Assembly (NCBI GenBank): GCA_947054085.1
Contig: CAMRVD010000002.1
Span: forward strand, 1-52,531
DNA: 52,531 nucleotides
From: an uncultured Clostridia bacterium
GTDB taxonomy: Bacteria; Bacillota; Clostridia; Christensenellales; UBA1242
Reading direction: 5' to 3'
A model generated the notes under the pieces. That model saw only the letters and a program-made list of their open reading frames with translations, made no database searches and had not been told where the DNA came from. The translations under genes were made by a program, and so were the position numbers. The number at the start of each line of letters is the position of its first letter. The stretch's first letter is position 1. Positions 10,311 through 46,279 of this stretch are shown here, piece by piece.

Positions 10311-10456
10311 CCTTAAAAAAAGTGTACGTTTTACTTCTAGTTTTAAAATAGATTATAATACTTACTTATTATGTAAAATAAATAAATATTTAATGGTTTA
10401 CTTTTTTTTATAGTTTTGTTATTATATTTATATATTTGTACACAACGGAGAAAATA

Positions 10457-20604: not shown

Positions 20605-22128
20605 ATGAAAAAGGTTTTATTATCAATAGTAAGCGTATGTTTGTGCATGGTTTGTGTGTTTTCTTTTGTTGCGTGTAAACCAAAAGACTACGGTACAACT
20701 ACCACAGATACATCTAGGGTAACATCTAATGGGGGCTCGTCTGTTATTTATAATGGCGAATTATACTTTGTAAACGGGTCTGCCACAAACGATGGTAATC
20801 ATAACGGTGGTACAATGGGCAGTATCTATAAAGTAGCAGTAAAAGATAATGGCGAAATTGCTGATAATGCAAGTTACCAAAAAGTTGTAGATTGTTTGGT
20901 TGGCTACAAAAATGGCTCGATAACTATAATCGGTGACTTTTTGTATTATGCAAAACCTAGCACGGCTAAAAATAAAAAGGGCGAAATATTATACAATCGC
21001 ACAGTATTTGAAAGAAAGAATTTAGCTAATGGTTTAACACAAGAGATTTATACAACTGCCGAAAATTCGGAGAGCGAAGAGGTTTCTTACGCCTACTATA
21101 AACATAATGGCAGCGTTAATTTAATAGTATACGAAAAAACAGCTGCGACTTTAAAAAGTTTAAAAATGGGTAACCAAATAACAACCAGTTTTGCTTTAGA
21201 TAAAGTAACATCTGCAGTATTTAGCGACAATATGGGCGAAAGCAAAACCGGAAACATCAGTGCGGATAACTATATATTTTATACTTTAGCAGCGGAAGAA
21301 AATGCTGTGAATACTCAAACAAACAGGGTGTATCGCATTTCTGCAGATGGATCTAACAAGTTGTTATTGCAAGACGATGCACAAGTAAGTTTATTATGTG
21401 TTCGTGCAGGCAAACTGGTATTTAGTGTAAGCTTTGGTAGTGGCTCTAATAAAATAGATTATATTTATGCTTATGATGTTAACCAAAATACAACCGAGCG
21501 AGCTTTATCTGTTGTAGATAGTGTAAATGGAAAAAATCCTAGCGAAAACAGTATTAATAACCTTGTTAGTACTAGCACTTACGAGGATATTATATTTTTA
21601 GAAGAAGGTACAAATTTAAACGAACTTGCGATTTTATTTATAGATGGCAAGGTGCTTAGGTATCTTAAATATAACAAAGGAACAATCGTAAAAGATATAA
21701 AGCTATATACATTTGCTAGTACCCCAACATTGGAGTTTGTAGATACTTATACCGATAATAGCTTAAATAAATCACGTAAATTTGCAATATTTACAAATAA
21801 AGAAAGCAGTAGTTCTAGTTCTTATTTGTATAAAATAGAATTTGGTTTTGATAATCAAGACCAAGTTAACGATGCAAGTCCAGAACCTGTTCAGCTTTCG
21901 TTGTCAAAAATTAATGATGCAATCGGAAATTTAGTTCCAAAAATGATTGGCAATTATATATATGTATTTTCTACCGACGAAGATAAAAATGTCTTGCAAT
22001 ATAGAGTAAATTTTTATACTCCTAAGGATCTGGAAGAACAAAATCCGTCTGGTGGCGATGATAAACCTACCGACGAAGATTTAAAGGTTAAGGAAGGTGT
22101 GCTACTAGGTGGTGCAAACCTATCCTAA
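20605..22128 (+). CDS. lipoprotein, possibly beta-propeller (DUF5050-like)
   Basis: Signal peptide with lipobox FVAC. Recurrent ...LYF/YY... strand motifs. Family assignment is tentative. Confidence 0.6.
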   Translation: MKKVLLSIVSVCLCMVCVFSFVACKPKDYGTTTTDTSRVTSNGGSSVIYNGELYFVNGSATNDGNHNGGTMGSIYKVAVKDNGEIADNASYQKVVDCLVGYKNGSITIIGDFLYYAKPSTAKNKKGEILYNRTVFERKNLANGLTQEIYTTAENSESEEVSYAYYKHNGSVNLIVYEKTAATLKSLKMGNQITTSFALDKVTSAVFSDNMGESKTGNISADNYIFYTLAAEENAVNTQTNRVYRISADGSNKLLLQDDAQVSLLCVRAGKLVFSVSFGSGSNKIDYIYAYDVNQNTTERALSVVDSVNGKNPSENSINNLVSTSTYEDIIFLEEGTNLNELAILFIDGKVLRYLKYNKGTIVKDIKLYTFASTPTLEFVDTYTDNSLNKSRKFAIFTNKESSSSSSYLYKIEFGFDNQDQVNDASPEPVQLSLSKINDAIGNLVPKMIGNYIYVFSTDEDKNVLQYRVNFYTPKDLEEQNPSGGDDKPTDEDLKVKEGVLLGGANLS

Positions 22129-22216
22129 CAGCAGAACTCAGCGAATAACTGCGTTATTAAAAAAATCCCACACGTTGTCTTTACGTTTTAGTAAATACTC
22201 GCGTGGGATTTTTTAT
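22127..22216 (+). repeat. hairpin-repeat family 1, copy at the lipoprotein stop codon (left arm + apical hairpin + T-run)
   Basis: AACAGCAGAACTCAGCGAATAACTGCGTT aligns with the left arms at 25889, 30093 and 36470. CCCACACGTTGTCTTTACGTTTTAGTAAATACTCGCGTGGG aligns with 29175-29217. Confidence 0.65.
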
Positions 22217-22305
22217 GCAATGTGATAATGGTAATTTTGTTGTAAACAGAACATAACTTCTATAAAAATAGTATACAAGATTTGCTATGTGGGCAGTATT
22301 AAATA

Positions 22306-23013
22306 GTGAAGTTAATAGGCCTATGCATAAAACTGGTTTATATTGTACTGGCTATTGTTGGTACTATTTTTTCTACCAGAGCATTTGACGACGTTTTTTT
22401 GCGTGACTTTTATATTTATTATACAAATATTACTAATTATTTATGTTTAATTGCTATGCTTATTTGTTTTATTGTAGAGTATAAGCAATTAAGTAATATA
22501 CTAAAAAATAAAGGTGATAATTTAAATAGTAGAAAATCTGTAGTTCCCCAAAAAGATATAAAAAATAAAACATTAGATAATTTTATTTTTGTATGTGCTA
22601 TTTTAATTTTTGTAACTTTTATAGTTTACAATGTTTGGCTTGCAGACTATAGTTTAAAAAATTATTTTTTGTGCCCATACAATTTACTGTTTCATGTAAT
22701 TTTGCCTATCTGGTTTATTATTTTTGCAATTACAAAAAAAAGTAAATTTACTCCGCTTGCACCCGTGTATGCATTTGCAGGGCAAACAATTTATGTGATG
22801 ATTATATTTTTACGCTCCTTAATAATAAAAAACACTCCTGGACGAATAATTTATCCGTACTTTTTTTTAAACTTCGAAACATTGGGTTTTTGGGGTTCTG
22901 TTAAGTGGCTTTTATTTATGTTTGTGTTTTCGTGTTTTACTGGTTATATTTTGTATTTTATTAATAAACTAATCATTTATTTAAAAAATAAAAATCATAG
23001 TAAAACGGCATAA
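22306..23013 (+). CDS. polytopic integral membrane protein (hypothetical)
   Basis: 235 aa, GTG start, about six hydrophobic helices. Confidence 0.5.
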   Translation: MKLIGLCIKLVYIVLAIVGTIFSTRAFDDVFLRDFYIYYTNITNYLCLIAMLICFIVEYKQLSNILKNKGDNLNSRKSVVPQKDIKNKTLDNFIFVCAILIFVTFIVYNVWLADYSLKNYFLCPYNLLFHVILPIWFIIFAITKKSKFTPLAPVYAFAGQTIYVMIIFLRSLIIKNTPGRIIYPYFFLNFETLGFWGSVKWLLFMFVFSCFTGYILYFINKLIIYLKNKNHSKTA

Positions 23014-26959: not shown

Positions 26960-29134
26960 ATGAAAATTATAAAAAGAAATGGTCAGGAAGTGATTTTTAA
27001 TAGCGATAAAATATATAATGCTATAGTTAAAGCTAATTTAAAGGTATCAGACAGAGAAAGAATTGCCGATGACCAAATTAAAGAAATTACTGACAAAGTA
27101 AGTTTGGCGTGCAAGAAGAAAAACAGAGCTGTAAGTGTAGAAGAGGTTCAGGATTTAGTAGAAAACGAACTTATGTTGGTTGGAAGTCCTTCCCTTGCTA
27201 GAGAATATATAACTTATAGATATCATAGAGCACTTGCTCGTAAATCTAATACAACAGACGAGCAGATTTTAGGGCTTATAGAGTGTAAAAACGAAGAAGT
27301 TAAGCAAGAAAATTCTAACAAAAACCCAACGGTAAGTAGTGTTCAACGAGACTATATGGCGGGCGAAATTAGCAAGGATTTAACGCGTAGGTTTTTGCTA
27401 CCAGAAGATGTTATAAAGGCTCATGACGAGGGCATTATTCATTTTCATGATACCGACTACTTTGCTCAGCATATGCATAACTGCGATCTTGTAAACCTAG
27501 AGGATATGCTTCAAAATGGCACTGTTATAAGCGGCACTATGATAGAAAAGCCTCATAAATTTTTGACTGCATGCAATATTGCAACGCAAATTATAGCACA
27601 AGTTGCATCAGCTCAGTATGGCGGGCAAAGCATAAGCTTAACTCACCTTGCTCCGTTTGTTAATGATAGTCGTAAAAAAATTCGCGAAGAAGTAGAAGCC
27701 GAATTTAAAGACGCGGGTGTACAAGTAGACGAAAAAGTCCTTACTAATATTGTAGAAAAACGCTTAAGAAAAGAAATTAAAAGTGGCGTGCAGACCATTC
27801 AGTATCAAGTGGTAACTTTAATGACAACTAACGGTCAAGCACCATTTATAACCGTGTTTATGTACCTTGGCGAGGCTAAAAACGAGCAGGAAAAAGCTGA
27901 CCTTGCAATAATTATAGAAGAAACTTTAAAACAACGCTACGAGGGCGTTAAAAACGAAGAGGGCGTATGGATAACTCCGGCCTTCCCTAAGCTTATATAT
28001 GTACTAGAAGAGCAAAACATTCATAAAGATAGCCCTTACTACTACCTTACTAAACTTGCTGCCGAATGCAGTGCAAAACGTATGGTTCCAGACTATATTT
28101 CCGAAAAGAAGATGCTAGAATACAAGGTAGATAAAAACGGCGAAGGTCATTGCTATACTTGCATGGGTTGTCGCAGTTTTTTAACACCTTATGTAGACGA
28201 AAATGGCAAGCCTAAATACTACGGCAGATTTAATCAAGGCGTGGTAACTATTAATCTTCCAGATGTTGCCCTTTCTAGTGGTGGCGACATGGATAAATTC
28301 TGGAAAATCTTTAACGAGAGATTAGATCTTTGCTACCGAGCTTTAATGTGCAGACATAATCGCTTAAAGGGTACGGTTAGTGATGTTGCACCTATCCTTT
28401 GGCAATACGGAGCACTTGCAAGGCTTAAAAAAGGCGAAACCATAGATAAACTGCTATATGGCGGATACTCTACAATATCTCTTGGTTATGCGGGGCTTTA
28501 CGAATGCGTAAAATACATGACTGGCTATTCGCATACCGACGACAAAGCCAAAGACTTTGCACTAAAGGTTATGCAGCACATGAACGACCGTTGCAAAGAG
28601 TGGAAGGAAAAAGAAAATATCGATTTTTCGCTTTATGGAACTCCGCTAGAAAGCACAACATATAAGTTTGCAAAGGCTCTTCAACGCCGCTTTGGAATTA
28701 TAGAGGGCATCAACGATAAAAGCTATATAACTAACAGTTACCATGTTCATGTGTCGGAGCCTATCGACGCCTTTACTAAACTTAAGTTCGAAAGTGAGTT
28801 TCAGCGTTTAAGCCCAGGCGGAGCAATAAGTTATGTAGAAGTACCAGACATGAAGTCTAACATAGACGCAGTTCTTAGTTTACTCAACTATATTTACGAC
28901 AACATTATGTACGCAGAAATCAATACAAAAAGCGACTTCTGCCAAGTTTGCGGCTACGACGGCGAAATCCAGATTGTCGAAGACGACGGCAAACTTGTTT
29001 GGGAATGCCCACATTGTAAAAACCGTGACCAAGCTAAAATGAATGTAGCTAGGCGTACTTGCGGCTATATTGGCACTCAGTTTTGGAATCAGGGGAGGAC
29101 TCAAGAGATACGCGACCGCGTCCTACATTTGTAG
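26960..29134 (+). CDS. nrdD: anaerobic ribonucleoside-triphosphate reductase
   Basis: ATP-cone N-terminus, C-terminal Zn-ribbon cysteines (CQVCG...CPHC) and glycyl-radical motif RRTCGYIG. Confidence 0.97.
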   Translation: MKIIKRNGQEVIFNSDKIYNAIVKANLKVSDRERIADDQIKEITDKVSLACKKKNRAVSVEEVQDLVENELMLVGSPSLAREYITYRYHRALARKSNTTDEQILGLIECKNEEVKQENSNKNPTVSSVQRDYMAGEISKDLTRRFLLPEDVIKAHDEGIIHFHDTDYFAQHMHNCDLVNLEDMLQNGTVISGTMIEKPHKFLTACNIATQIIAQVASAQYGGQSISLTHLAPFVNDSRKKIREEVEAEFKDAGVQVDEKVLTNIVEKRLRKEIKSGVQTIQYQVVTLMTTNGQAPFITVFMYLGEAKNEQEKADLAIIIEETLKQRYEGVKNEEGVWITPAFPKLIYVLEEQNIHKDSPYYYLTKLAAECSAKRMVPDYISEKKMLEYKVDKNGEGHCYTCMGCRSFLTPYVDENGKPKYYGRFNQGVVTINLPDVALSSGGDMDKFWKIFNERLDLCYRALMCRHNRLKGTVSDVAPILWQYGALARLKKGETIDKLLYGGYSTISLGYAGLYECVKYMTGYSHTDDKAKDFALKVMQHMNDRCKEWKEKENIDFSLYGTPLESTTYKFAKALQRRFGIIEGINDKSYITNSYHVHVSEPIDAFTKLKFESEFQRLSPGGAISYVEVPDMKSNIDAVLSLLNYIYDNIMYAEINTKSDFCQVCGYDGEIQIVEDDGKLVWECPHCKNRDQAKMNVARRTCGYIGTQFWNQGRTQEIRDRVLHL

Positions 29135-29256
29135 ACGGCAACACTTAACGCAACTTTTCGCTTACTAATGCTTTGCCCACACTTGTCATTTACGCATAAG
29201 TAAACTCCGCGCGTGGGCAAACATAGAGCACTTAATTTGCATCAATTCTTGCCGCC
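29135..29256 (+). repeat. hairpin-repeat family 1, full unit a (122 nt)
   Basis: Starts right after the nrdD TAG. The ends ACGGCAA.../...TTGCCGC pair, as does the inner stem TTTGCCCAC/GTGGGCAAA. The apex is GTCATTTACGCATAAGTAAACTCC (29185-29208). Confidence 0.7.
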
Positions 29257-29259
29257 TAC

Positions 29260-29380
29260 GGGCAAGCGACATTTGGCTTTATGTAGCAGATTTTGCTTTT
29301 GCCAACTAGTCACTTACGCAATTGTCAAGCTCCTAGCTGGTAAAAACATCGCAACTTTGTCTAGCATCTAAATTCTGCCT
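29260..29380 (+). repeat. hairpin-repeat family 1, full unit b (121 nt)
   Basis: The inner stem is TTTTGCCAACTAG/CTAGCTGGTAAAA and the apex is GTCACTTACGCAATTGTCAAGCTCC (29309-29333). The right end reverse-complements to GGCAGAATTTAG, the same as the left end at 30097. Confidence 0.7.
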
Positions 29381-29423
29381 TTTATGGTAAGTTAATAGAT
29401 AAAATATAAAAGAGATAAATATT

Positions 29424-29544
29424 AAACGGAAAAAATTAGATGCTCCGTAAGGCTCGGCGATGCTTGAATAAAGATTTTACTAATTGTAAATGAGTTTATT
29501 AAAGCGTTGACAGAAACATAACGGGGCGCTAATTTTTTCCGTTT
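29424..29544 (+). repeat. hairpin-repeat family 1, full unit c (121 nt) with perfect 16-nt terminal inverted repeats
   Basis: AAACGGAAAAAATTAG (29424-29439) pairs with CTAATTTTTTCCGTTT (29529-29544). The apex is degenerate: TTTTACTAATTGTAAATGAG. Confidence 0.75.
29507..29535 (+). promoter_or_regulatory. candidate nrdG promoter lying inside repeat unit c
   Basis: TTGACA (29507-29512), 17-nt spacer, TAATTT (29530-29535), followed by the AAAGGAG RBS and the ATG at 29558. Confidence 0.45.
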
Positions 29545-29557
29545 AAAAGGAGATAAT

Positions 29558-36469: not shown

Positions 36470-36593
36470 AAACGGCAATAATTAGCGAATTACTACATAA
36501 ACTTAAAAAAGGCAGACTGGTCATTTACGCTTAAGTAAAATCCTAGCCTGCTTTTTTTAGTTTACTTTGTACTTCATCTAATTATTGCCGTTT
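36470..36593 (+). repeat. hairpin-repeat family 1, full unit (124 nt) with perfect 16-nt terminal inverted repeats
   Basis: AAACGGCAATAATTAG (36470-36485) pairs with CTAATTATTGCCGTTT (36578-36593). The inner stem is flanked by A6 and T7 runs. The apex is GTCATTTACGCTTAAGTAAAATCC (36520-36543). Confidence 0.8.
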
Positions 36594-36783: not shown

Positions 36784-38136
36784 ATGAAAATGGAAAATTT
36801 AACCGATACAATTGTTGCAATTTCTACTGGCTCTACAAGTGGGGCTATTTCTATTGTGCGAATGAGCGGCAAAGATGCAATTAATATTGCAAATAAAATG
36901 TTTAGATCTTTAAAAAACAAAATACCTAAAGAATTTAACGCTAGGTATCTGGAACTAGGCAATCTAAAAACAAGCGGCTTTACCGAGCAAGCGTTATGCG
37001 TGGTTTTTAAAGCACCTTATAGCTATACGGGCGAAGATATTGTAGAGTTTCAGTGTCATGGTGGGCTAAAGATAGCCGAAGGCGTGGTAACCGAGTGCAT
37101 AAAAAATGGTGCAAGGCTTGCAACCAATGGCGAATTTACAAAAAGGGCATTTATTAACGGCAAACTAAGTTTGTCTAGTGCCGAAGGCGTTATGGATATG
37201 ATAAACGCCGAAACCGATGCCGAAGTGCGTGCAGGGTACGAACTATTAAATGGCGGGCTTTCTAAAATTGCAACGGACTCGCAAAACGAACTGACCGATA
37301 TTTTAAGCGAAATAGAAGTATCTTTTGATTACCCCGAAGAACAAATAGAATATATAACCAAAGCCAAAGTAAAACAAAGGCTAAACAGCATAGCAGGTTT
37401 GCTTGATGACGTGCTAGAAAGCAGTAAAACCGGTAACCTAATAAAAAATGGTATAAGCATTTTAATTGTAGGTAAACCTAATGTAGGTAAAAGCAGTTTA
37501 TTAAACAGGCTAATTAACCGAGATAGGGCAATAGTAACAGACATACCGGGTACAACCCGAGATAGCATAGAGGACAGCTTTACAATTGGCGGAATTAAGG
37601 CTAAAATAATAGATACGGCGGGTATTCATGATACCGACGATCTGGTAGAAAAATTAGGCGTAGATAAAGCCAAACAGCTTATAGATTTTGCAGACATTAT
37701 TATTTATGTTACAGACAGTTCTAATCCTTTAGTCAAAGAAGATAATGATATTTTTGAACTTGTAAAAAATAAGCAGCACATAAAGGTGGCAAACAAGTGC
37801 GATATAGCAAAAACGCGTCAAGATAAAACATCAATATATATAAGCTCTGCAACAGGTGAGGGCATCGAAAATCTAAAACAAGAAATCTATAATCGATTTA
37901 AAAGTCCAAAACTTGTAGAGGGCGGTGTAATTATTACAAACGCACGCCACAAACAAGCACTAGCTGTTGCACTAGAACATGTTAATATGGCACTAGACGA
38001 CATAGACAACCAAACCCTCGATTTAATTTCTATAGACTTAAAGCTTGCTTATTCTGCACTGGGTGAAATTACAGGTAACACCACAGGCGAAGATATAATA
38101 GATAGTATTTTTAGTAAATTTTGTTTAGGAAAATAA
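36784..38136 (+). CDS. mnmE: tRNA modification GTPase MnmE
   Basis: DTIVAISTG N-terminus, G1 GKPNVGKSSLLN, DTAG, NKCD and the C-terminal FCLGK motif. Confidence 0.95.
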   Translation: MKMENLTDTIVAISTGSTSGAISIVRMSGKDAINIANKMFRSLKNKIPKEFNARYLELGNLKTSGFTEQALCVVFKAPYSYTGEDIVEFQCHGGLKIAEGVVTECIKNGARLATNGEFTKRAFINGKLSLSSAEGVMDMINAETDAEVRAGYELLNGGLSKIATDSQNELTDILSEIEVSFDYPEEQIEYITKAKVKQRLNSIAGLLDDVLESSKTGNLIKNGISILIVGKPNVGKSSLLNRLINRDRAIVTDIPGTTRDSIEDSFTIGGIKAKIIDTAGIHDTDDLVEKLGVDKAKQLIDFADIIIYVTDSSNPLVKEDNDIFELVKNKQHIKVANKCDIAKTRQDKTSIYISSATGEGIENLKQEIYNRFKSPKLVEGGVIITNARHKQALAVALEHVNMALDDIDNQTLDLISIDLKLAYSALGEITGNTTGEDIIDSIFSKFCLGK

Positions 38137-38138
38137 TC

Positions 38139-39194
38139 ATGAGAATAATTCAGTTATACAGTTACGATAAATATATAAAGCAAATAGAAAATTGGACAAA
38201 AGACAATACCGATCCAAACGCTAATAATATTCAAAAGTTTGTGCTTGGGAGTGGAACAATGACAGAGTTTTTAAATGACGTCATAAAAAAATCAGCAACA
38301 GAAAAACCTATTTTTAAAAAGCGAAAATTTTATGTTGCAATAGAAAACGACGAAGTTCTAGCTTTTGCAGATATACAAATTGAACCAGATATGGAGCTTT
38401 TAGGTGAATATCACGAAATTAATATTTTGTCTGTTGCCGTAAATCCAAAATATCAATCAAAAGGAATAGGCACAACTTTTATTCAAAATGTAATTGATTG
38501 CAATATTAATAACACTACTAGTAATATTAATGTTTTTGTAGAAAATACAAACCAAAAAAGCTTAAATATGTTTAAAAACGTTACATTTAAAAATAATAAA
38601 AAGTTTAATTCTACAAAAAAAGAATGGGATGGCAATTATTTGTTAAATTGCTCTATGATAGATTACAACTATTTTAATGGATATGAATTAAAACAAATAA
38701 CAGAAAAATCTGTCGAGGTTGATCAGCTTAACGAATGGGCAAACTTAAAAAATAATTCTGCTTTAAAAAAATATACGTTTAAAGACCAAGAAATAGATTT
38801 TACAGAACTATTAAAAGATAATTTGGTCAAAACTTTAACTAATGTAAAACCAAAAAGTTATGTTCTTTTGCACAATAACGAAGTGGTTGGACTAGTTATT
38901 TTTAGTCTGTTTAAAAATCATCATAACAGCGATAAGGTTTGTTTTATCAGACACATATGCACACATCCCGAATGTCAAAATTTAGGAGTTGGTGCTAAAC
39001 TTCTAGATTCTGTTATATATAACAGACAAAACATGCTTGGCAAAGATTACGATATTATATTAGCCGATATTGTGGATGATAATAAACCGTCACTTAGACT
39101 GTTTAAAAAAATGGGATTTAATATTGTAAAAGAAAAAAATAATTATACCGCTAGTTTAATAAATCCAAAAAAAACAAATACAAGAAGAATATGA
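38139..39194 (+). CDS. tandem-GNAT (two acetyltransferase-like halves) protein
   Basis: The ATG lies 2 nt after the mnmE stop, and its TGA overlaps the mnmG ATG (ATGA). The first half has LSVAVNPKYQSKGIGTTFIQNVI. The second has ICTHPECQNLGVGAKLLDSVI...LFKKMGFNIV. Confidence 0.7.
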   Translation: MRIIQLYSYDKYIKQIENWTKDNTDPNANNIQKFVLGSGTMTEFLNDVIKKSATEKPIFKKRKFYVAIENDEVLAFADIQIEPDMELLGEYHEINILSVAVNPKYQSKGIGTTFIQNVIDCNINNTTSNINVFVENTNQKSLNMFKNVTFKNNKKFNSTKKEWDGNYLLNCSMIDYNYFNGYELKQITEKSVEVDQLNEWANLKNNSALKKYTFKDQEIDFTELLKDNLVKTLTNVKPKSYVLLHNNEVVGLVIFSLFKNHHNSDKVCFIRHICTHPECQNLGVGAKLLDSVIYNRQNMLGKDYDIILADIVDDNKPSLRLFKKMGFNIVKEKNNYTASLINPKKTNTRRI

Positions 39195-41041
39195 ATAACA
39201 AAATTAATTATGATTGTATAGTAGTAGGTGCAGGGCACGCAGGAGTGGAAGCCGCCCTTGCAACTGCCAGAACTAATAATAAGACACTGTTAGTTACTTT
39301 AACAAAAGAAGCTATCAGTTTTTTAGCATGCAATCCTTCTATTGGAGGCACGGCCAAAGGTCATTTGGTGTGCGAAATAGACGCCCTTGGCGGCGAAATG
39401 GGCAGAACTGCCGATCGAACAACATTGCAGCTAAGAATGCTTAATATGGGCAAAGGTCCAGCAGTGCATAGTCTAAGAGCTCAAGTAGATAAAAATAGCT
39501 ATCATCGTACTATGCAGCAAGTTTTAGAAGAACAGCCAAACTTAGATATTTTAGAGGACGAAGGTGCAGAAATTTTAACCCAAGAGGGCAAAGTTGCAGG
39601 GATTGTTACAGTAAGCGGAAAAACTTTTAATTGTAGAGCGATAGTACTTGCATGCGGAGTGTATTTAAACAGCCGAACAATAACGGGCGAGATTATCAAA
39701 GACAGTGGCCCTGCTGGGTTTGGCAATAGCAAAAACTTAACTAAAAGCCTAATAGACTTAGGTTTTCAAATACGTAGGTTTAAAACGGGAACACCGCCAA
39801 GACTGGACGGTGACAGTATAGATTATTCCCAGTTTGAAGAGCAAAAGGGTGATAAGAATATTCAGACTTTTAGCTTTTTAACAAAAAAGGCAAACCCAAA
39901 TACTAGGGTGTGCTATCTTGGTTATACTACCGAGCTTACCAAAAAAATAATTTTAGATAATCTAGACAAAGCACCTATGTATAGTGGAGTTATTACCGGG
40001 CTAGGGCCTAGGTATTGCCCAAGTATAGAAACCAAAATTGTCCGCTTTAGCGATAAGGATCGTCATCAAGTATTTTTAGAACCAGAAACCAACGATAATA
40101 ATCAAATATATATTCAGGGTATGTCTACAAGCATGCCAAAGGATATTCAGCACAAGATGATAGAGTCTATCGCGGGGCTAGAAAAAACTAAGTTTGTAAA
40201 ATACGGTTACGCCATAGAATACGATTGCATTAATCCGCTTAACTTGTACCCAACGCTAGAATGTAAGTTTGTAAAAGGCTTGTTTTGTGCAGGTCAGATT
40301 AATGGCACTAGCGGCTACGAGGAAGCTGGGGCACAAGGCATAGTTGCTGGTATAAACGCCAACTTGTACATAAAAGGTAAAGAGCAACTAATATTAAAAC
40401 GAGATAATAGTTATATTGGAGTTCTTATAGACGACCTTACAACCAAAGGCACAAACGAGCCTTACCGTATGATGACTAGCCGTGCAGAATATAGGTTATT
40501 ACTGCGTCAAGATAACGCAGACCAAAGGCTTACCGAAATTGGGTATAGTGTAGGGCTTGTAACACCCGAACGCTACAAAAAGTTTAAGCACAAAATGAGG
40601 CAGATAGAAAAACTTAAAACTTATTTAAACAATGTAATAGCACCTAGCGAGCAGCTAGACGAGTATCTTGTAAGCATTGGCGAAAACCCCGCTCCAAGAG
40701 GAATAACTATAGATAATCTATGTAAGCGTGCAAATAGCGATTTATACTTAGCCAACAAAAAGCTTAAACTTTTCAAAGGCTTTAGTAAGGCTGAGATTAC
40801 CGAAGTTAATATAGACGCTAAGTACGAGGGCTATTTAAAACGTCAGAACCAACTTATTGAGCGTAGCCGAAAGCTAGAGGAAAAGCGAATACCTGCTGGC
40901 TTTAACTTTAAAGCGGTAAAGGGGTTACGAACCGAAGCTGCCGAAAAACTCGACAACATTAAGCCGCTAACCTTGGGTGCTGCTAGCAGAATAAGCGGCG
41001 TAAACCCAGCAGATATAACAGTGTTACTTATGCACTTGTAA
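39191..41041 (+). CDS. mnmG: tRNA uridine 5-carboxymethylaminomethyl modification enzyme MnmG
   Basis: FAD motif VVGAGHAGVEAA. Full-length GidA-like sequence of 616 aa. Confidence 0.97.
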   Translation: MNNKINYDCIVVGAGHAGVEAALATARTNNKTLLVTLTKEAISFLACNPSIGGTAKGHLVCEIDALGGEMGRTADRTTLQLRMLNMGKGPAVHSLRAQVDKNSYHRTMQQVLEEQPNLDILEDEGAEILTQEGKVAGIVTVSGKTFNCRAIVLACGVYLNSRTITGEIIKDSGPAGFGNSKNLTKSLIDLGFQIRRFKTGTPPRLDGDSIDYSQFEEQKGDKNIQTFSFLTKKANPNTRVCYLGYTTELTKKIILDNLDKAPMYSGVITGLGPRYCPSIETKIVRFSDKDRHQVFLEPETNDNNQIYIQGMSTSMPKDIQHKMIESIAGLEKTKFVKYGYAIEYDCINPLNLYPTLECKFVKGLFCAGQINGTSGYEEAGAQGIVAGINANLYIKGKEQLILKRDNSYIGVLIDDLTTKGTNEPYRMMTSRAEYRLLLRQDNADQRLTEIGYSVGLVTPERYKKFKHKMRQIEKLKTYLNNVIAPSEQLDEYLVSIGENPAPRGITIDNLCKRANSDLYLANKKLKLFKGFSKAEITEVNIDAKYEGYLKRQNQLIERSRKLEEKRIPAGFNFKAVKGLRTEAAEKLDNIKPLTLGAASRISGVNPADITVLLMHL

Positions 41042-41076
41042 TTGTAATAGATATAAAATTGCAACTTTAGCATATT

Positions 41077-41105
41077 GTCATTCTGGGTCTACGAGCGAAG
41101 AATAC
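41077..41105 (+). repeat. short repeat family 2-related arm (GTCATTCTGGGTCTACGAGCGAAGAATAC)
   Basis: Imperfect inverted partner of 41124-41158. Confidence 0.45.
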
Positions 41106-41123
41106 AAAACCAAATAAATAAAA

Positions 41124-41158
41124 GATCCTTCAACTCACTGTCGTCCGCTCAGGAAGAC
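41124..41158 (-). repeat. short repeat family 2, copy c (reverse orientation)
   Basis: The reverse complement GTCTTCCTGAGCGGACGACAGTGAGTTGAAGGATC aligns with 18536-18568. Confidence 0.55.
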
Positions 41159-41181
41159 GGATTGGAAAAGTGTACTAATCG

Positions 41182-41212
41182 AAAAAAACCACGGAATTTC
41201 CGTGGTTTTTAT
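41182..41212. terminator. bidirectional intrinsic terminator (mnmG / jag convergent)
   Basis: CCACGGA/TCCGTGG stem flanked by A7 and T5 runs. Confidence 0.85.
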
Positions 41213-41310
41213 TTGTTATTTGTCATTGTATTAATTTTTGTCTAGTCATAATAATTTAGCCATAACAATTTAATTTTAATTGCTTAGTGGTAATTATTAA
41301 TCTTAATTGC

Positions 41311-42024
41311 CTAGTCGTTATTGTCGCGTAGGTCGCTAACTTCTATGTTAGTAAATTCGGGTTTTGCTTGTTTTTGCTTGCGGTCTTCGCTTTTTTGCTT
41401 GCGTTTGTCCGCTGCGTCTTTAAGCATAATTGTAACATATCTGTATGGGTCCTTGCCGTTACTAACAGTAGTTACTTTTGCATGGTCGGCAAGGGCGGTA
41501 TGAATAAATCGTCTGTCGCTAGCATTCATAGGCTCTAGTTTTACACTTCTGCCCGAACGCATTACTTTACCGGCTTCACGCATAGCAAGAAGTTTAAGCG
41601 TATCGCCTCGCTTTGTGCGGTAACCATTGCTATCTACCATTAGGCGTTTATACTCGGCAGATACTTTGCCTTTGTTAAATATACTATTTATAATAAACTG
41701 AAAACTATCTAAATTTTCGCCGTGCTTACCAATAAAGTACGACGCATCGTCACCGGTAATGTCTATGTAAAAGTGATCTTCCTTTTCTTCTACATAAACA
41801 TCTACAGACAAATTCATAAGTTTTGTAAGCTTTTCTGCAAGGTCTTTTACAGCAGTTTCAGCTTCGCTGGATTGTTCTAAAGTAAGTCTTACTTTAGCTT
41901 TATTAAATAATCCTGCTTGCTCTAAAATATTAATTTTAACTTGGTCGCGGGTTACTCCTAGCTTGTATAAACCAATTTCTATAGCTTGGTCTACAGTTTT
42001 TCCTTCGGTTTCTAAACTTTTCAT
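41311..42024 (-). CDS. jag: RNA-binding protein Jag/KhpB (Jag_N, KH, R3H)
   Basis: MKSLETEGKTVDQAIEIGL N-terminus and an R3H-like SDRRFIHTAL motif. Immediately downstream of yidC. Confidence 0.9.
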   Translation of the reverse strand: MKSLETEGKTVDQAIEIGLYKLGVTRDQVKINILEQAGLFNKAKVRLTLEQSSEAETAVKDLAEKLTKLMNLSVDVYVEEKEDHFYIDITGDDASYFIGKHGENLDSFQFIINSIFNKGKVSAEYKRLMVDSNGYRTKRGDTLKLLAMREAGKVMRSGRSVKLEPMNASDRRFIHTALADHAKVTTVSNGKDPYRYVTIMLKDAADKRKQKSEDRKQKQAKPEFTNIEVSDLRDNND

Positions 42025-42025
42025 A

Positions 42026-43189
42026 TTATCTTACTCTCCCATTACGTTTTTCTAATTTTAAAGCTTCTTTTGCAAGTTCTTCTTCCACTTCGGCTTCTTT
42101 CTTTCTAAATACTTTAGATACTATTAGGTTTGTGATAAGCCCTATAATTGTACTCATAAGTGAGTTGGTAATAACATATATACCAAATGCAGAGTTAGTG
42201 GTAAATACAAATATAGCCATCATAACAGGAACAAGAAGCTTCATAAACCACATAGATTTGGCTTGTGGATTTGCTGCATCTACAACTTGCTGTGATTTTT
42301 TGTTTTTACTTTTTGTAGATAAATCGCTAATCATCATAGTTGCAACCGATAATACTACCGAAATAACAGCAAGTAGATAATAACCGTTCCAGTCGCCGGT
42401 GTCTGCAACTATCATGCCCGAAATTTGAGTGTAGTTAAAGTTGAGAACTGGATTATTAATTATTTCGTTGACATCTGCTTTGTAATCGGCCTTTTTACTG
42501 TTATTTGCCATTTTTTGAAGCTCGGCTAGACTAGGGAATGGGCTAGCGTGACCATCGGTCACCCAAATGTTTTTAATCCATAGCCAGCTTTGTTTTTCTT
42601 CGTGCCATTTTGCTTGAACAACTTCGGTTGCTTCTTTTACTGCGGCTTCTACCTTGGCTTTTTCGTCCTCGCTTACTTCCTCGTTTTTAGAAAGTTTTTC
42701 TAATACAATCTTATACTCTTCGTAGTTGCCATCGTAGCTTTGGGTAACGCTTGCTACGTATGCATCGTGAATATTATGATACTGCGATATTGCTTGATAA
42801 CTAGATAAATCCCTTAGTCCTGCAAATAGGGTAAAGAAAATCACCGAGGTTAATACAAGGTTAAGTAGCATAACTATACACGAGCCAAAAACATTGTAGC
42901 CCTCGCGTTTGTACAAAGCTTGGGTTTGAGTTTGGATCATCTGCGAGTTATTGCCATACTTAATTTTTAGTCTTGTCATTTGTGGTGCAAGCTTTTTTTG
43001 CATAAGCGAAGTTTTTTTGCTGCTGTGTTTAATAAGATAGTCAAAAGGGCTTAAAACAAGTTTTACAAATATAATAAGCACAAGTATTGTCCAGCCGTAG
43101 CCACCAACAAAACTATGCACCCAATTTATTAAGCTTGCCCACATACCCGTTGGTGCTTGTACTGCAGCAATTATAGGTTCAAGGTTCAT
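42026..43189 (-). CDS. yidC: membrane protein insertase YidC/SpoIIIJ family
   Basis: Polytopic 387-aa protein in the rnpA-yidD-yidC-jag context with a conserved 60-kDa-IMP-like core. An extra charged insertion lies between helices. Confidence 0.88.
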   Translation of the reverse strand: MNLEPIIAAVQAPTGMWASLINWVHSFVGGYGWTILVLIIFVKLVLSPFDYLIKHSSKKTSLMQKKLAPQMTRLKIKYGNNSQMIQTQTQALYKREGYNVFGSCIVMLLNLVLTSVIFFTLFAGLRDLSSYQAISQYHNIHDAYVASVTQSYDGNYEEYKIVLEKLSKNEEVSEDEKAKVEAAVKEATEVVQAKWHEEKQSWLWIKNIWVTDGHASPFPSLAELQKMANNSKKADYKADVNEIINNPVLNFNYTQISGMIVADTGDWNGYYLLAVISVVLSVATMMISDLSTKSKNKKSQQVVDAANPQAKSMWFMKLLVPVMMAIFVFTTNSAFGIYVITNSLMSTIIGLITNLIVSKVFRKKEAEVEEELAKEALKLEKRNGRVR

Positions 43190-43199
43190 AAAATTCTCC

Positions 43200-43475
43200 T
43201 TACATTAAATTTTTATAGTAGCCTTTTATATTATAAGGCACGGGGTCTAATCCGCCTTTAGTAAATGGATTGCACTTTAGTAATCTTTTAGCAGTTAAAA
43301 AAATACCTACAAAAAAACCCCACTCTTTAGTACTTTCACTTGCGTAAACCGAGCAAGTTGGAGTAAATTTGCATGTGTGGGGGATAAAAGGTGATATGCA
43401 AAATCTAAATATATAAAATACCCCTAAAAGCAGGTATTTAGGAATATTAATAACTACTTTAAAAAAATTCTTCAT
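43200..43475 (-). CDS. yidD: membrane protein insertion efficiency factor YidD
   Basis: CKFTPTCSVYASES...RLLKCNPFTKGGLDPVP signature. Confidence 0.9.
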   Translation of the reverse strand: MKNFFKVVINIPKYLLLGVFYIFRFCISPFIPHTCKFTPTCSVYASESTKEWGFFVGIFLTAKRLLKCNPFTKGGLDPVPYNIKGYYKNLM

Positions 43476-43816
43476 TCATCCATGTAAAGTTTGGCTTTTT
43501 TTAAAAGATAATCTGTTTCTCCGCTAAGCGTTTTAAATGTCGCATCAGCCGAGGCTGGTTTTGCTACAATTATAATATTGTAGTTATTTTTAAGTTTACT
43601 AAGTAGTGGGCTAATGCTCTCGCGAATGCGACGTTTAGTGCGGTTTCTTACAACTGCACCACCCACTTTTTTACTAACCGATATACCAACTTTAATATTC
43701 TTGTTTTTGCTAGGGCAGTAGTAGAGTACTAAATTTTTGCCGCCTACCGTTTTGCCAACTTTATAAACATAATTAAATTGATATTTCTTTTTTAGTCTGT
43801 AAACCTTTTTAATCAT
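43472..43816 (-). CDS. rnpA: ribonuclease P protein component
   Basis: 114 aa, basic, with RNR-type motif AVVRNRTKRRIRE. Overlaps the yidD start. Confidence 0.9.
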   Translation of the reverse strand: MIKKVYRLKKKYQFNYVYKVGKTVGGKNLVLYYCPSKNKNIKVGISVSKKVGGAVVRNRTKRRIRESISPLLSKLKNNYNIIIVAKPASADATFKTLSGETDYLLKKAKLYMDE

Positions 43817-45721: not shown

Positions 45722-46279
45722 TTACTTATTTTTTACTAAATTAAAGTTAAAAGTAGTTAAGTCTGCAAAATAGGTATTGTTTGGCTTTAAATTTCCAAAG
45801 TAAAATATTGTTGCACTTTTTGTGGAACTAGATTGTAAGCCCACTTCAGTATATTCAATTTTATAAAAACTAAAGCCTAAAATGTTTAAAAGTGGGTTTA
45901 TATAAAATAAATTATTTCGTATATAAACTATGCCTACAAAAACAAGAATGAGAGCAAAAATAGTTGCCATATAAACATACTCTATTTCGTAACTAAGTGC
46001 AAATAATACAAATAGCGAAAAGTAACCTAAAAAGTGATTTTCGGTAATATTTTTGCAAGTTATAACCTTAATTTGCGTTTTTTTACCTGTATTTAAACAT
46101 AGCATTAGCCCAAGTATTCCAAGCCCAATAAGAAGACTTAATATACTAAGTAGACAAGTATTAAGCACATTTACGCTTAAATTTTTGTTTATTATTTGCA
46201 CGGCTATTTTAATAATTAGTAAAGCGTATAATGGAATAAATGCGGAAAAATATAAACAGAGTTTTTTTAAAAATAGCAT
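45722..46279 (-). CDS. polytopic membrane protein (hypothetical)
   Basis: 185 aa, about five hydrophobic helices. Confidence 0.5.
   Translation of the reverse strand: MLFLKKLCLYFSAFIPLYALLIIKIAVQIINKNLSVNVLNTCLLSILSLLIGLGILGLMLCLNTGKKTQIKVITCKNITENHFLGYFSLFVLFALSYEIEYVYMATIFALILVFVGIVYIRNNLFYINPLLNILGFSFYKIEYTEVGLQSSSTKSATIFYFGNLKPNNTYFADLTTFNFNLVKNK

What the first reader, a model, noticed from the sequence alone, without database searches (positions are those of the whole stretch)
29185..29333. Conserved apical mini-hairpin shows a compensatory change while supporting stems differ in sequence
The apices read as follows:
- 29185-29208: GTCATTTACGCATAAGTAAACTCC
- 36520-36543: GTCATTTACGCTTAAGTAAAATCC
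- 22177-22199: GTCTTTACGTTTTAGTAAATACT
- 29309-29333: GTCACTTACGCAATTGTCAAGCTCC

Each contains a 5-bp hairpin TTTAC-N6-GTAAA. In the 29309 copy the outer T:A pair becomes C:G (CTTAC...GT(C)AAG).

The stems directly beneath have unrelated sequences but keep their pairing, including G-U-compatible positions:
- TTTGCCCAC/GTGGGCAAA
- TTTTGCCAACTAG/CTAGCTGGTAAAA
- GGCAGACTGG/CCTAGCCTGC
- ATCCCACACG/CGCGTGGGAT

A conserved loop with covarying stems points to a selected RNA or single-stranded-DNA structure rather than a recently copied sequence.
Basis: seen in the sequence. Interest (0 to 1): 0.65.

Follow-up and report, generated by a model that had tools for sequence, protein, structure and literature searches.

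The report
Dispersed gene-end hairpins, invariant tip
The four look-alike hairpin tips belong to a previously uncatalogued family of long hairpin repeats at the ends of genes in a group of uncultured gut Clostridia, whose small tip module stays almost constant while the stems change with their pairing kept, as if an unknown factor docks there.

Summary
The four hairpins (22160-22214, 29160-29229, 29286-29352, 36498-36564, all + strand) share the module G-TCA-TTTAC-N6-GTAAA-CTC-C on unrelated, pairing-preserving stems.

A looser scan of those loci gave about 150 copies in 0.89 Mb, against none in a reversed-sequence control.

In most genomes the module caps a roughly 120-nt imperfect hairpin. 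That hairpin has 33 consensus pairs, 26 with compensatory double changes (0 of 500 shuffles reach this). The 5-bp mini-helix covaries (CTTAC/GTAAG, TGTAC/GTACA, CGTAC/GTACG, TTTAG/CTAAA). The hexaloop varies. The flanking UCA/CUC internal loop is nearly invariant.

Copies abut the stop codon of a co-oriented upstream gene, or follow tRNA and tmRNA genes. They often form tandem doublets and keep one orientation per locus. No Rfam family matches.

There are also signs of repeat dynamics: subfamilies, a paralogous doublet, and a strain rearrangement that breaks exactly at the module.

Best reading: a new ERIC/REPIN-like dispersed hairpin family, co-transcribed at transcript 3' ends, whose tip is a docking site for an unidentified factor. 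The function itself is not shown.

The parts
22160..22214 (+). Hairpin copy 3. An A-run, stem ATCCCACACG/CGCGTGGGAT, the tip module GTC-TTTACGTTTTAGTAAATACT (22177-22199, lacking the A of GTCA) and a T-run. It starts 32 nt after the stop of the 507-aa ORF (20605-22128) and looks like a bidirectional intrinsic terminator.
   Evidence: R1 E 0.007; -23.3 kcal/mol, z -6.6.
29160..29229 (+). Hairpin copy 1. It starts 26 nt after the nrdD stop (29134). Stem TTTGCCCAC/GTGGGCAAA with outer extensions; tip module 29185-29208, GTCATTTACGCATAAGTAAACTCC. No T-run follows.
   Evidence: R1 E 2.6e-6; -23.6 kcal/mol, z -3.5. A paralogue of 29174-29232 with 5 differences lies on another contig.
29258..29277 (+). 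Small hairpin CTTGCC-GCCTACG-GGCAAG in the 76-nt spacer between the two units of the doublet.
   Evidence: Read directly. RNAfold does not draw this stem: it pairs only an inner GCC...GGC and uses the flanking bases elsewhere. Role unknown.
29286..29352 (+). Hairpin copy 4, the second unit of the doublet, 124 nt after copy 1. Stem TTTTGCCAACTA/TAGCTGGTAAAA; variant tip GTCACTTACGCAATTGTCAAGCTCC (29309-29333), with C-G replacing T-A and a bulged C. In other strains its 3' arm is replaced and the hairpin is lost.
   Evidence: R1 E 0.009; -15.5 kcal/mol, z -1.6.
29422..29546 (-). Third, long hairpin in the nrdD-nrdG spacer. It ends 12 nt before the nrdG start. Its tip, GAU-UUUAC-UAAUU-GUAAA-UGAG on the + strand, reads as a degenerate module on the - strand (29473-29493). 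Probably an inverted copy. It is absent or replaced in other strains.
   Evidence: -52 kcal/mol, z -8.1; R1 E 1.3, weak on its own.
36498..36564 (+). Hairpin copy 2. It starts 44 nt after the glmS stop (36454) and lies upstream of mnmE (36784). An A-run, stem GGCAGACTG/TAGCCTGCC, tip module 36520-36543 GTCATTTACGCTTAAGTAAAATCC, then a T-run. Terminator-like.
   Evidence: R1 E 9.2e-7; -23.9 kcal/mol, z -5.9. A related species carries a different family member at the same place.

Best explanation
What it is: the four hairpins are members of a lineage-specific family of dispersed hairpin elements. The elements run from about 50 to 140 nt, with a median of 121 nt in other genomes. They sit at the 3' ends of transcription units and are transcribed with the upstream gene.

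Anatomy of each element:
- an invariant tip module: a closing pair, a G-C pair, a 3x3 internal loop UCA/CUC, a 5-bp helix UUUAC/GUAAA and a variable hexaloop;
- stems below it that differ between subfamilies and loci but keep their pairing, interrupted by conserved pyrimidine-pyrimidine mismatches.

Proposed working:
- The long hairpin forms in the mRNA, tRNA or tmRNA 3' trailer. There it acts as a 3'-end structure: a terminator where an A-run and a T-run flank it (as at 22160 and 36498), and otherwise a barrier to 3' exonucleases or a processing site inside operons (as between nrdD and nrdG).
- The tip is the docking site of a trans-acting factor, most likely a protein, that is conserved across the lineage.
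- The family is kept numerous and homogeneous by DNA-level copying: tandem duplication, gene conversion or transposition.

Shown: the family, its structure, its covariation, its position, its orientation, its retention at orthologous sites, its repeat dynamics, and its absence from Rfam.

Inferred: that it works as RNA, that the tip binds a factor, and what that does to the transcript.
For: Family and structure
- A scan allowing up to 4 mismatches found about 150 copies in 0.89 Mb, against 0 in a reversed-sequence control.
- The full-length form has 33 consensus pairs in 7 helices, 26 of them with double changes. 92.8% of cells are paired against 70.1% in shuffles, and 0 of 500 shuffles reach the observed values.
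- For the tip module, 98.6% of cells are paired and 45 cells carry a double change, again 0 of 500.
- The closing pair reads G-C 81 and A-U 26.

Position and orientation
- The nearest upstream ORF is co-oriented in 84 cases against 15.
- I sampled ten flanking ORFs, most from those exceptions; seven of the ten have no Pfam hit, so they look like shadow ORFs. None gave a verified case of an element lying antisense inside an operon.
- The module typically starts 36-67 nt after the stop codon.
- Copies also follow tRNA-Gly, tRNA-Leu and tmRNA genes in the same orientation.
- Every locus with several copies has them all on one strand.

Evidence of selection at single sites
- An element follows queA in 8 species whose QueA proteins are only 58-94% identical.
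- An element follows glmS both in the window and in a species whose NrdG is 85% identical, but with different stems and a compensated tip.
- In the window the stems are unrelated while the tip is kept.

Fit with a terminator role
- A-run and T-run flanks are present at 22160 and 36498.
- Many full-length copies have the same flanks.

Strand asymmetry
- Unpaired residues are 88% pyrimidine in the 3' arm and 66% in the 5' arm.
- Neutral decay of a palindrome would not produce this.
Against: - No RNA data with strand or 3'-end resolution could be had. The metatranscriptome runs are held only as thin, direction-less contigs.
- G.U pairs (39) are not commoner than A.C mismatches (51), and one-sided changes are rare (23 cells against 483 double changes). 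A structure selected as RNA would be expected to tolerate G.U.
- The reverse-complement strand folds on average 8.8 kcal/mol better, in 106 of 113 copies. There the internal loops become tandem G.A pairs.
- In the subfamily that follows tRNA genes, a terminator-like hairpin comes before the tip hairpin, so the tip hairpin may not be transcribed efficiently.
- Most full-length copies have no T-run beyond the palindrome.
- Copy 4 is broken in other strains without visible harm.
- One probable copy lies in the opposite orientation.
- No binding factor was identified.
Confidence: 0.45

Rival explanations
1. A selfish or domesticated mobile DNA hairpin, like REP/REPIN with its RAYT transposase or IS200/IS605-derived elements. 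In this reading the element spreads through a single-stranded DNA hairpin. The invariant tip is the recognition site of a transposase-like nuclease encoded elsewhere in the genome. The orientation bias comes from selection against the harmful orientation in transcripts, which would expose AAGGAG- and GGGAG-like ribosome-binding sequences.
For: - High copy number, with subfamilies whose full length is nearly identical behind unrelated genes.
- Tandem arrays of 2-4 units.
- A paralogous doublet on another contig.
- A strain polymorphism in which 199 nt are replaced by 110 nt, with the breakpoint exactly at the 3' edge of the module. This removes an inverted 125-nt hairpin.
- Covariation that is Watson-Crick only, with G.U about as frequent as A.C.
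- The reverse strand forms tandem G.A pairs, which are stable in DNA hairpins.
- REPINs also show compensatory changes in a long hairpin (PMC3116915).
Against: - The architecture is the reverse of REPINs and MITEs: the centre is conserved and the ends vary (PMC3116915).
- There is no GTAG or terminal CGTC tag as in the described REP superfamilies, and that survey mentions neither Firmicutes nor Clostridia (PMC3733652).
- No transposase was seen among the 28 window ORFs scanned or among the families most often found next to copies. Whole genomes were not searched.
- No clean insertion with a target-site duplication was found.
- Copies persist at orthologous sites across deep divergence.
- Old copies in the window keep the tip although their stems are unrelated. 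That argues for selection on each copy.
Confidence: 0.3
2. A double-stranded DNA site. In this reading the 16-bp inverted repeat TTTAC-N6-GTAAA with asymmetric flanks is bound by a dimeric DNA-binding protein or a recombinase, with two arms and a 6-bp spacer as in dif or lox sites. The surrounding palindromes are incidental terminators.
For: - The arms-plus-6-bp-spacer layout, with the outer flanks different (GTCA against GGAG), resembles the core sites of tyrosine recombinases. This resemblance is from my own knowledge.
- One strain rearrangement breaks exactly at the module.
Against: - Compensatory changes at four of the five positions of the inverted repeat in independent copies are what base pairing predicts, not what a protein with fixed specificity predicts.
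- The pairing continues for about 60 bp on each side with its own covariation.
- There are about 100 sites per genome, all polar with respect to transcription.
Confidence: 0.07
3. Ordinary intrinsic terminators whose loops resemble each other by chance or by local duplication. In this reading there is no family and no selection.
For: Two of the four window copies have the canonical form of an A-run, a stem and a T-run.
Against: - Chance expectation is 0.08-0.33 matches against the 3-4 found.
- At least 116 stretches in other species match a 20-nt pattern.
- The reversed-sequence control gives zero matches.
- The covariance model recovers window copies that were held out of its training.
- Plain terminators without the module also exist in the window.
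Confidence: 0.02
4. Protein-coding sequence, or a small ORF that spans the module.
For: Two forward reading frames are open across the module. In one of them the variable positions look like third-codon positions and hydrophobic codons (reading).
Against: - Copies lie after the stop codon of the upstream ORF.
- The tandem period is 124 nt, which is not a multiple of 3.
- All three reverse frames and one forward frame carry stops or stop-prone codons within the module.
- The variation is compensatory between the two arms.
Confidence: 0.01

Closest known systems
ERIC / IRU (enterobacterial repetitive intergenic consensus) elements
   Same: From my own knowledge: imperfect palindromes of about 126 bp, with the best-conserved part a central inverted repeat. 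They lie in transcribed intergenic regions, are shared by many species of one lineage, are present in tens to hundreds of copies, fold into long hairpins in mRNA, and affect neighbouring mRNA in an orientation-dependent way. ERICs are cited as probable MITEs in PMC3116915. Size, layout, location and spread across a lineage all match what is seen here.
   Different: - The host lineage is unrelated (gut Clostridia, not enterobacteria), and no sequence relation was tested.
- ERICs occur in both orientations; here the orientation relative to transcription is nearly absolute.
- Here the stems differ completely between subfamilies while a roughly 30-nt tip is invariant.
REP / BIME and REPIN elements with their RAYT transposases
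   Same: - High-copy extragenic palindromes, mostly downstream of genes.
- Often arranged in doublets or clusters.
- Long hairpins with compensatory changes.
- Proposed roles in termination and mRNA stabilisation.
- Recognised by a dedicated nuclease (PMC3116915, PMC3733652, PMC3479197).
   Different: - REPINs have conserved ends and a variable centre; here the centre is conserved and the ends vary.
- REPs carry a GTAG or CGTC tag at the foot, and the survey mentions neither Firmicutes nor Clostridia.
- REP doublets are mostly inverted; the doublets here are direct.
- No RAYT-like gene was found, but whole genomes were not searched.
Rho-independent (intrinsic) terminators
   Same: - Position just after genes, co-oriented with them.
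- Stable stem-loops.
- An A-run and a T-run flank two of the window copies and many full-length copies.
   Different: - Terminators have no conserved sequence and short stems.
- Here a roughly 30-nt module is invariant across many species and the hairpins reach 140 nt.
- Two of the four window copies and most full-length copies have no U-tract beyond the palindrome.
Terminator-embedded or hairpin-tip recognition elements (bacterial SECIS bound by SelB, the HMP-PP 'thiS' riboswitch)
   Same: A small conserved module sits at or near the tip of a hairpin whose lower stem is free to vary. It is recognised by a trans-acting ligand or protein (my own knowledge; PMC6478431 for the terminator-embedded aptamer).
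   Different: - SECIS follows an in-frame UGA inside a gene. Here the stop codon lies 36-67 nt upstream and the hairpins are extragenic.
- Riboswitches sit in the 5' leaders of functionally related genes in few copies. Here about 100 copies per genome follow unrelated housekeeping genes and tRNAs.

Membership tests
Any Rfam 15 family (including the Clostridiales orphan motifs) | A covariance-model match at the family's gathering score. | tested here: not met
   There were no matches at gathering score in the whole window or in 10 loci covering all three forms of the element. With permissive E-value scans of a full-length element and of the window spacer, nothing overlapped the motif except noise at E > 0.1.
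Intrinsic terminator | A G+C-containing stem-loop directly followed by a U-tract. | tested here: inconclusive
   Met at 22160-22214 and 36498-36564, which have T6-T7 directly after the stem. Not met at 29160-29229 and 29286-29352. In full-length copies the T-run, where present, pairs with an upstream A-run, so the test is uninformative.
Intrinsic terminator | Transcripts end at the hairpin. | not testable with these tools
   Only direction-less, low-depth contigs of the metatranscriptomes are held.
REP / REPIN | A conserved GTAG or CGTC tag at the foot of a 20-40-bp palindrome, with the ends of the doublet conserved and the spacer variable. | tested here: not met
   There is no GTAG. The conserved unpaired residues are TCA and CTC next to the tip helix. 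Conservation is highest at the centre and lowest at the ends, the reverse of REPINs.
REP / REPIN | An associated RAYT (Y1 transposase) gene, flanked by the repeats. | not tested
   No such family was seen among 28 window ORFs or among the 25 commonest families in 57 genes next to copies. Whole genomes could not be searched.
MITE | Conserved terminal inverted repeats and a target-site duplication. | tested here: not met
   The outermost stems vary by locus or by genus. The one polymorphic site found is a replacement with its breakpoint at the tip, not a clean insertion with a duplication.
ERIC-like intergenic palindrome (by kind, not by homology) | An imperfect palindrome of about 125 bp with a conserved central inverted repeat, lying in transcribed intergenic regions and shared across a lineage. 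| tested here: met
   Median hairpin length is 121 nt. The centre is invariant. Copies lie between genes and after stop codons. Many genera are involved. Sequence homology to ERIC was not tested.
Integron attC | Conserved R''/R' (GTTRRRY) boxes at the base of the hairpin, lying behind cassette genes. | tested here: not met
   The base of the hairpin is variable and the tip is conserved. The neighbours are housekeeping genes such as nrdD, glmS, queA, ffh and secY, and tRNA genes.
Bacterial SECIS | A hairpin directly 3' of an in-frame UGA inside a coding sequence. | tested here: not met
   The elements lie after the terminal stop codon, which is TAA in the queA and glmS cases. The module begins 36-67 nt further on.

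The most novel reading that the evidence does not exclude
The invariant tip (G-UCA-UUUAC-N6-GUAAA-CUC-C) may be the docking site of a still unidentified factor specific to this lineage, which acts on about 100 hairpins per genome. Two forms are possible: a global, sequence-specific system for RNA 3'-end formation, termination or stabilisation in these Clostridia, or a Firmicute counterpart of the REP-RAYT partnership with the reverse architecture (recognition site at the tip, free stems). The recurrent direct doublets, a TTTAC tip followed 111-124 nt later by a CTTAC tip, would then be a two-site unit.
Probability: 0.25. Interest if true: 0.8.

Novelty: new variant of a known kind. Interest (0 to 1): 0.58.

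Why it matters
Dispersed intergenic palindromes such as REP, ERIC and Correia elements are well studied in Proteobacteria. They are scarcely described in the uncultured gut Clostridia that make up much of animal gut communities.

This family offers three things:
- It gives those genomes a recognisable, alignable landmark at gene ends, which is useful for annotation, for terminator prediction and for strain typing.
- It shows an unusual pattern: a roughly 30-nt tip held constant across genomes from 33% G+C upward, while about 100 nt of stem are exchanged with pairing kept. This is the signature expected of a site read by a trans-acting factor.
- Finding that factor would reveal either a lineage-wide mechanism acting on transcript 3' ends or a new mobilisation system for hairpin DNA. 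The motif makes the question directly testable by pull-down, reporter assay and phyletic profiling.

Tried and rejected
Searches that found nothing
- Rfam at gathering and at permissive thresholds: nothing.
- Literature search by sequence string and by topic: nothing describes the motif.
- tRNA or tmRNA within the window: none.

Readings rejected
- Protein-coding: stops in four frames, a 124-nt period, and a position after stop codons.
- A motif carried by phages: 0 hits with the strict pattern. With the looser pattern there were 9 hits, of which 8 are chance matches inside coding sequence (7 of them the same phage sequence) and 1 is real (L124).
- 'Class B' as one orthologous locus: the same roughly 190-nt unit follows different tRNA genes and a tmRNA gene, with unrelated neighbours.
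- The SD-plus-mini-ORF reading of the reverse strand (GGAG-N7-ATG CGT AAA TGA): it holds in copy 1 only.
- Similarity of the right half to the XerD arm of Firmicute dif (GTAAACT): this comes from memory and is out of register with the palindrome centre, so I dropped it.

Tests that were inconclusive or uninformative
- T-run enrichment after full-length hairpins: the T-run pairs with an A-run and falls inside the predicted stem.
- Choosing the strand from wobble pairs: G.U counts are equal on the two strands.
- Separating transcription from replication orientation: the whole window has positive GC skew on the + strand and the loci are only 8 kb.
- Metatranscriptome contigs: too thin and direction-less to map 3' ends.
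Full report
**1. The observation**

The window has 33% G+C.

Chance does not explain them:
- TTTAC-N6-GTAAA occurs 4 times against 0.33 expected, and no shuffle of 100 reaches 4. One of the four, 28497-28512 inside nrdD, has no other family feature.
- The 20-mer GTCATTTACGCNTAAGTAAA gives 3 matches at up to 3 mismatches against 0.08 expected. Two are exact and the third is probably chance.

All four copies are on the + strand and all lie just downstream of + strand genes:
- after a 507-aa ORF that ends at 22128;
- twice in the 423-nt spacer between nrdD (ends 29134) and nrdG (starts 29558);
- after glmS (ends 36454), ahead of mnmE.

The energies are -23.3, -23.6, -15.5 and -23.9 kcal/mol, with z-scores of -6.6, -3.5, -1.6 and -5.9. 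The copies at 22160 and 36498 carry an A-run before and a T-run after the stem and look like bidirectional intrinsic terminators. The two nrdD-nrdG copies do not.

Below the module there is a C-G pair followed by an A.C mismatch at the same distance in every copy (reading).

**2. It is a large family**

- All but one (a Flavobacterium hit inside a gene) come from uncultured gut Clostridia MAGs. They are labelled Candidatus Coproplasma, Scatosoma, Gallimonas, Protoclostridium, Stercoripulliclostridium, Christensenellaceae or simply Clostridia.
- NCBI files these genera as Clostridia or Eubacteriales incertae sedis. From memory, GTDB places them in Christensenellales.
- The window's own sequence is found in mouse-gut metagenomes.

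Allowing up to 4 mismatches to GTCATTTACG-N4-AGTAAACTCC gives about 150 copies in the 0.89 Mb held (window included), against none in the reversed-sequence control.

A covariance model of the module (R1) was built without the two variant window copies (22177 and 29309). It finds all four window copies at E = 9e-7, 2.6e-6, 0.007 and 0.009, and nothing else convincing in the window.

Rfam 15 has no matching family at gathering or at permissive thresholds. Text searches found no description of the motif.

**3. Anatomy**

In most genomes the module caps a long imperfect hairpin, with a median length of 121 nt.

An alignment of 66 full-length copies gives 33 consensus pairs in 7 helices:
- 26 pairs show changes on both sides.
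- 92.8% of cells are paired, against 70.1% in shuffles and at most 46% when the partners are slid.
- 483 cells carry a double change, against 147 in shuffles.
- No shuffle of 500 reaches the observed values.

The tip module itself:
- The closing pair switches between G-C and A-U (81 and 26; 57 and 32).
- A G-C pair follows, then a 3x3 internal loop TCA/CTC that is nearly invariant.
- The 5-bp helix shows compensatory variants in independent copies: CTTAC/GTAAG, TGTAC/GTACA, CGTAC/GTACG and TTTAG/CTAAA.
- The hexaloop is variable. My search pattern had forced GYNTWA, but variants include GTCTAT, CATTTA, TTCTTT and GTCGGT.

The conserved element, however, is the helix and its unpaired flanks, not the loop.

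The lower internal loops are also conserved and are almost all pyrimidine-pyrimidine mismatches on the sense strand. Unpaired residues are 88% pyrimidine in the 3' arm and 66% in the 5' arm.

**4. Where the copies lie**

Protein-coding neighbours:
- Of 124 exact copies, the nearest upstream ORF is co-oriented in 84 cases and opposed in 15.
- I sampled ten flanking ORFs, most of them from those exceptions. Seven have no Pfam hit and look like shadow ORFs of G+C-rich DNA.
- The three with Pfam hits do not break the rule. Two are convergent downstream genes. The third is a thiamine-transporter gene whose real start lies far from the element.
- I therefore found no verified case of an element lying antisense inside an operon.
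- The module typically begins 36-67 nt after the stop codon, so the foot of the hairpin abuts or overlaps the stop.
- In the queA loci the TAA stop lies inside the 5' arm.
- The upstream genes are unrelated housekeeping genes: queA, mnmE, purH, tyrS or trpS, ffh, nusG, secY, pgk and others.

RNA-gene neighbours:
- A roughly 190-nt multi-hairpin subfamily follows tRNA-Gly(CCC), tRNA-Leu(GAG) and tmRNA genes in different species, in the same orientation and with unrelated genes beyond it.

Arrangement:
- All copies within any one locus share a strand.
- Direct tandem doublets and arrays with periods of 100-134 nt are common.
- The window's pair is 124 nt apart.
- The order 'TTTAC tip, then CTTAC tip' recurs in the window, in L062 and in L116.

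**5. Persistence and turnover**

Persistence:
- An element follows queA in 8 species whose QueA proteins are 58-94% identical. The stems differ by compensated changes or by a switch of subfamily.
- In a species whose NrdG is 85% identical to the window's, an element lies 48 nt after the glmS stop. It has a CTTAC/GTAAG tip, different stems and the long form of the 5' arm.

Turnover:
- Within a genome or genus, copies behind unrelated genes can be nearly identical over their whole length.
- A contig from the same community carries a paralogue of 29174-29232 with 5 differences, followed 76 nt later by a second tip.
- Strains with 99% identical NrdG have a different nrdD-nrdG spacer. Window 29335-29533 is replaced by 110 nt that carry a canonical 3'-arm-like sequence (GAGCCTTGCTCTGCGTCAATTTTT).
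- The breakpoint lies exactly at the 3' edge of the 29309 module, and that copy no longer folds (z -0.5).

The segment missing from those strains holds a third hairpin, 29422-29546 (-52 kcal/mol, z -8.1). Its tip, GAU-UUUAC-UAAUU-GUAAA-UGAG, reads as a degenerate module on the opposite strand (R1 E 1.3). It is probably an inverted copy.

**6. RNA or DNA, and which strand**

For RNA:
- The near-absolute polarity with respect to transcription, including after tRNA and tmRNA genes.
- The position at stop codons.
- The terminator-like flanks of many copies.
- The asymmetry in pyrimidine content.

Against RNA, or at least not for it:
- G.U pairs (39) are no commoner than A.C mismatches (51).
- One-sided changes are rare (23 cells against 483 double changes).
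- The reverse-complement strand folds 8.8 kcal/mol better on average, in 106 of 113 copies. There UCA/CUC becomes GAG/UGA, a run of G.A, A.G and G.U.
- In the subfamily that follows tRNA genes, a terminator-like hairpin precedes the tip hairpin.

Transcription and replication orientation could not be separated. The + strand of the whole window has positive GC skew and the loci are short. The RNA runs available are thin, direction-less contigs.

**7. Interpretation**

I file this as a new family of dispersed intergenic hairpin elements. In kind it stands closest to ERIC/IRU: imperfect palindromes of about 126 bp with a conserved central inverted repeat, in transcribed intergenic regions (my own knowledge; named as probable MITEs in PMC3116915). 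It is also close to REP/REPIN elements (PMC3116915, PMC3733652).

It differs from those in three ways:
- The architecture is the reverse of REPINs: conserved centre, free ends.
- It has no GTAG or CGTC tag.
- It is polar with respect to transcription.

Most likely mechanism (about 0.45):
- The element is transcribed with the upstream gene and forms a long 3'-end hairpin.
- Where U-tracts follow, the hairpin terminates transcription. Elsewhere it protects or processes the transcript.
- The tip is read by a conserved trans-acting factor.
- DNA-level copying keeps the family numerous.

Main rival (about 0.3): a REP-RAYT-like mobile single-stranded DNA hairpin whose tip is the nuclease's recognition site. 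In that reading the polarity comes from selection against the orientation that would place AAGGAG-like sequences in transcripts.

The two are not exclusive. A duplex DNA site, chance similarity and coding sequence are each unlikely or refuted.

**8. Verdict**

The feature is real, widespread and uncatalogued. Its function is not shown. Interest is moderate to high, because the motif points to an unknown factor and is easy to test.

Noticed in passing
window 29422-29546: There is a 125-nt, very stable hairpin (-52 kcal/mol, z -8.1) directly upstream of the nrdG ribosome-binding site. Its tip looks like the family module on the opposite strand. It is absent or replaced in other strains, so nrdG's leader differs between strains.
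   Followed up: partly
window 29335-29533 against L126 2867-2976 (also L127-L133): Two alleles of the nrdD-nrdG spacer circulate in mouse-gut samples, one of 423 nt and one of 334 nt. The breakpoint lies exactly at the 3' edge of the 29309 tip module, and the other allele carries a foreign 3' arm. This looks like recombination between family members at their tips.
   Followed up: partly
L002, L028, L035, L055, L069, L084 and others (for example L084 2674-2900): A conserved unit of about 190 nt follows tRNA-Gly(CCC), tRNA-Leu(GAG) and tmRNA genes in different species. It consists of a terminator-like hairpin, the tip-bearing hairpin and a third hairpin. The genes beyond it vary and are often surface proteins (LRR_5, Flg_new, GH3). 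It is tandemly repeated in L020, L079 and L114.
   Followed up: partly
window 29185/29309; L062 (two - strand copies 111 nt apart); L116 (two - strand copies 124 nt apart): Direct doublets recur in which the first unit has the TTTAC/GTAAA tip and the second, 111-124 nt later, has the CTTAC/GTAAG tip. A paralogous doublet also exists on another contig of run X10. This may be a two-site unit.
   Followed up: no
L024, L027, L056, L074, L113, L116 (queA 3' ends): The queA stop codon and the last codons lie inside the 5' arm of the hairpin. The 3' arm is therefore complementary to coding sequence.
   Followed up: no
window 36784-43816: mnmE, a GNAT gene and mnmG (+ strand) converge on jag/khpB, yidC and rnpA (- strand). 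In most Firmicutes, from memory, these genes form one co-directional cluster next to the origin. The GC skew flattens and turns slightly negative from about 40.5 kb.
   Followed up: no
window 28497-28512: TTTACGAATGCGTAAA lies inside nrdD. It matches the mini-hairpin pattern but has no flanking module or stem (R1 E 3.2). It is a chance palindrome, not a family member.
   Followed up: yes
window 119-1558, 1907-2924, 10436-11434, 20605-23013, 45722-46279: Several sizeable ORFs have no Pfam match at the thresholds used (1e-3 for 20605-23013, 1e-5 for the rest). Among them are the 507-aa and 235-aa ORFs that flank the 22160 hairpin.
   Followed up: no
L124 3898-3927 (IMG/VR contig, 34% G+C): This is the only convincing family member found on a contig classed as viral. 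It may be host flank or a prophage border.
   Followed up: no
window 29258-29277: A small hairpin, CTTGCC-GCCTACG-GGCAAG, sits in the 76-nt spacer between the two units of the nrdD-nrdG doublet.
   Followed up: no
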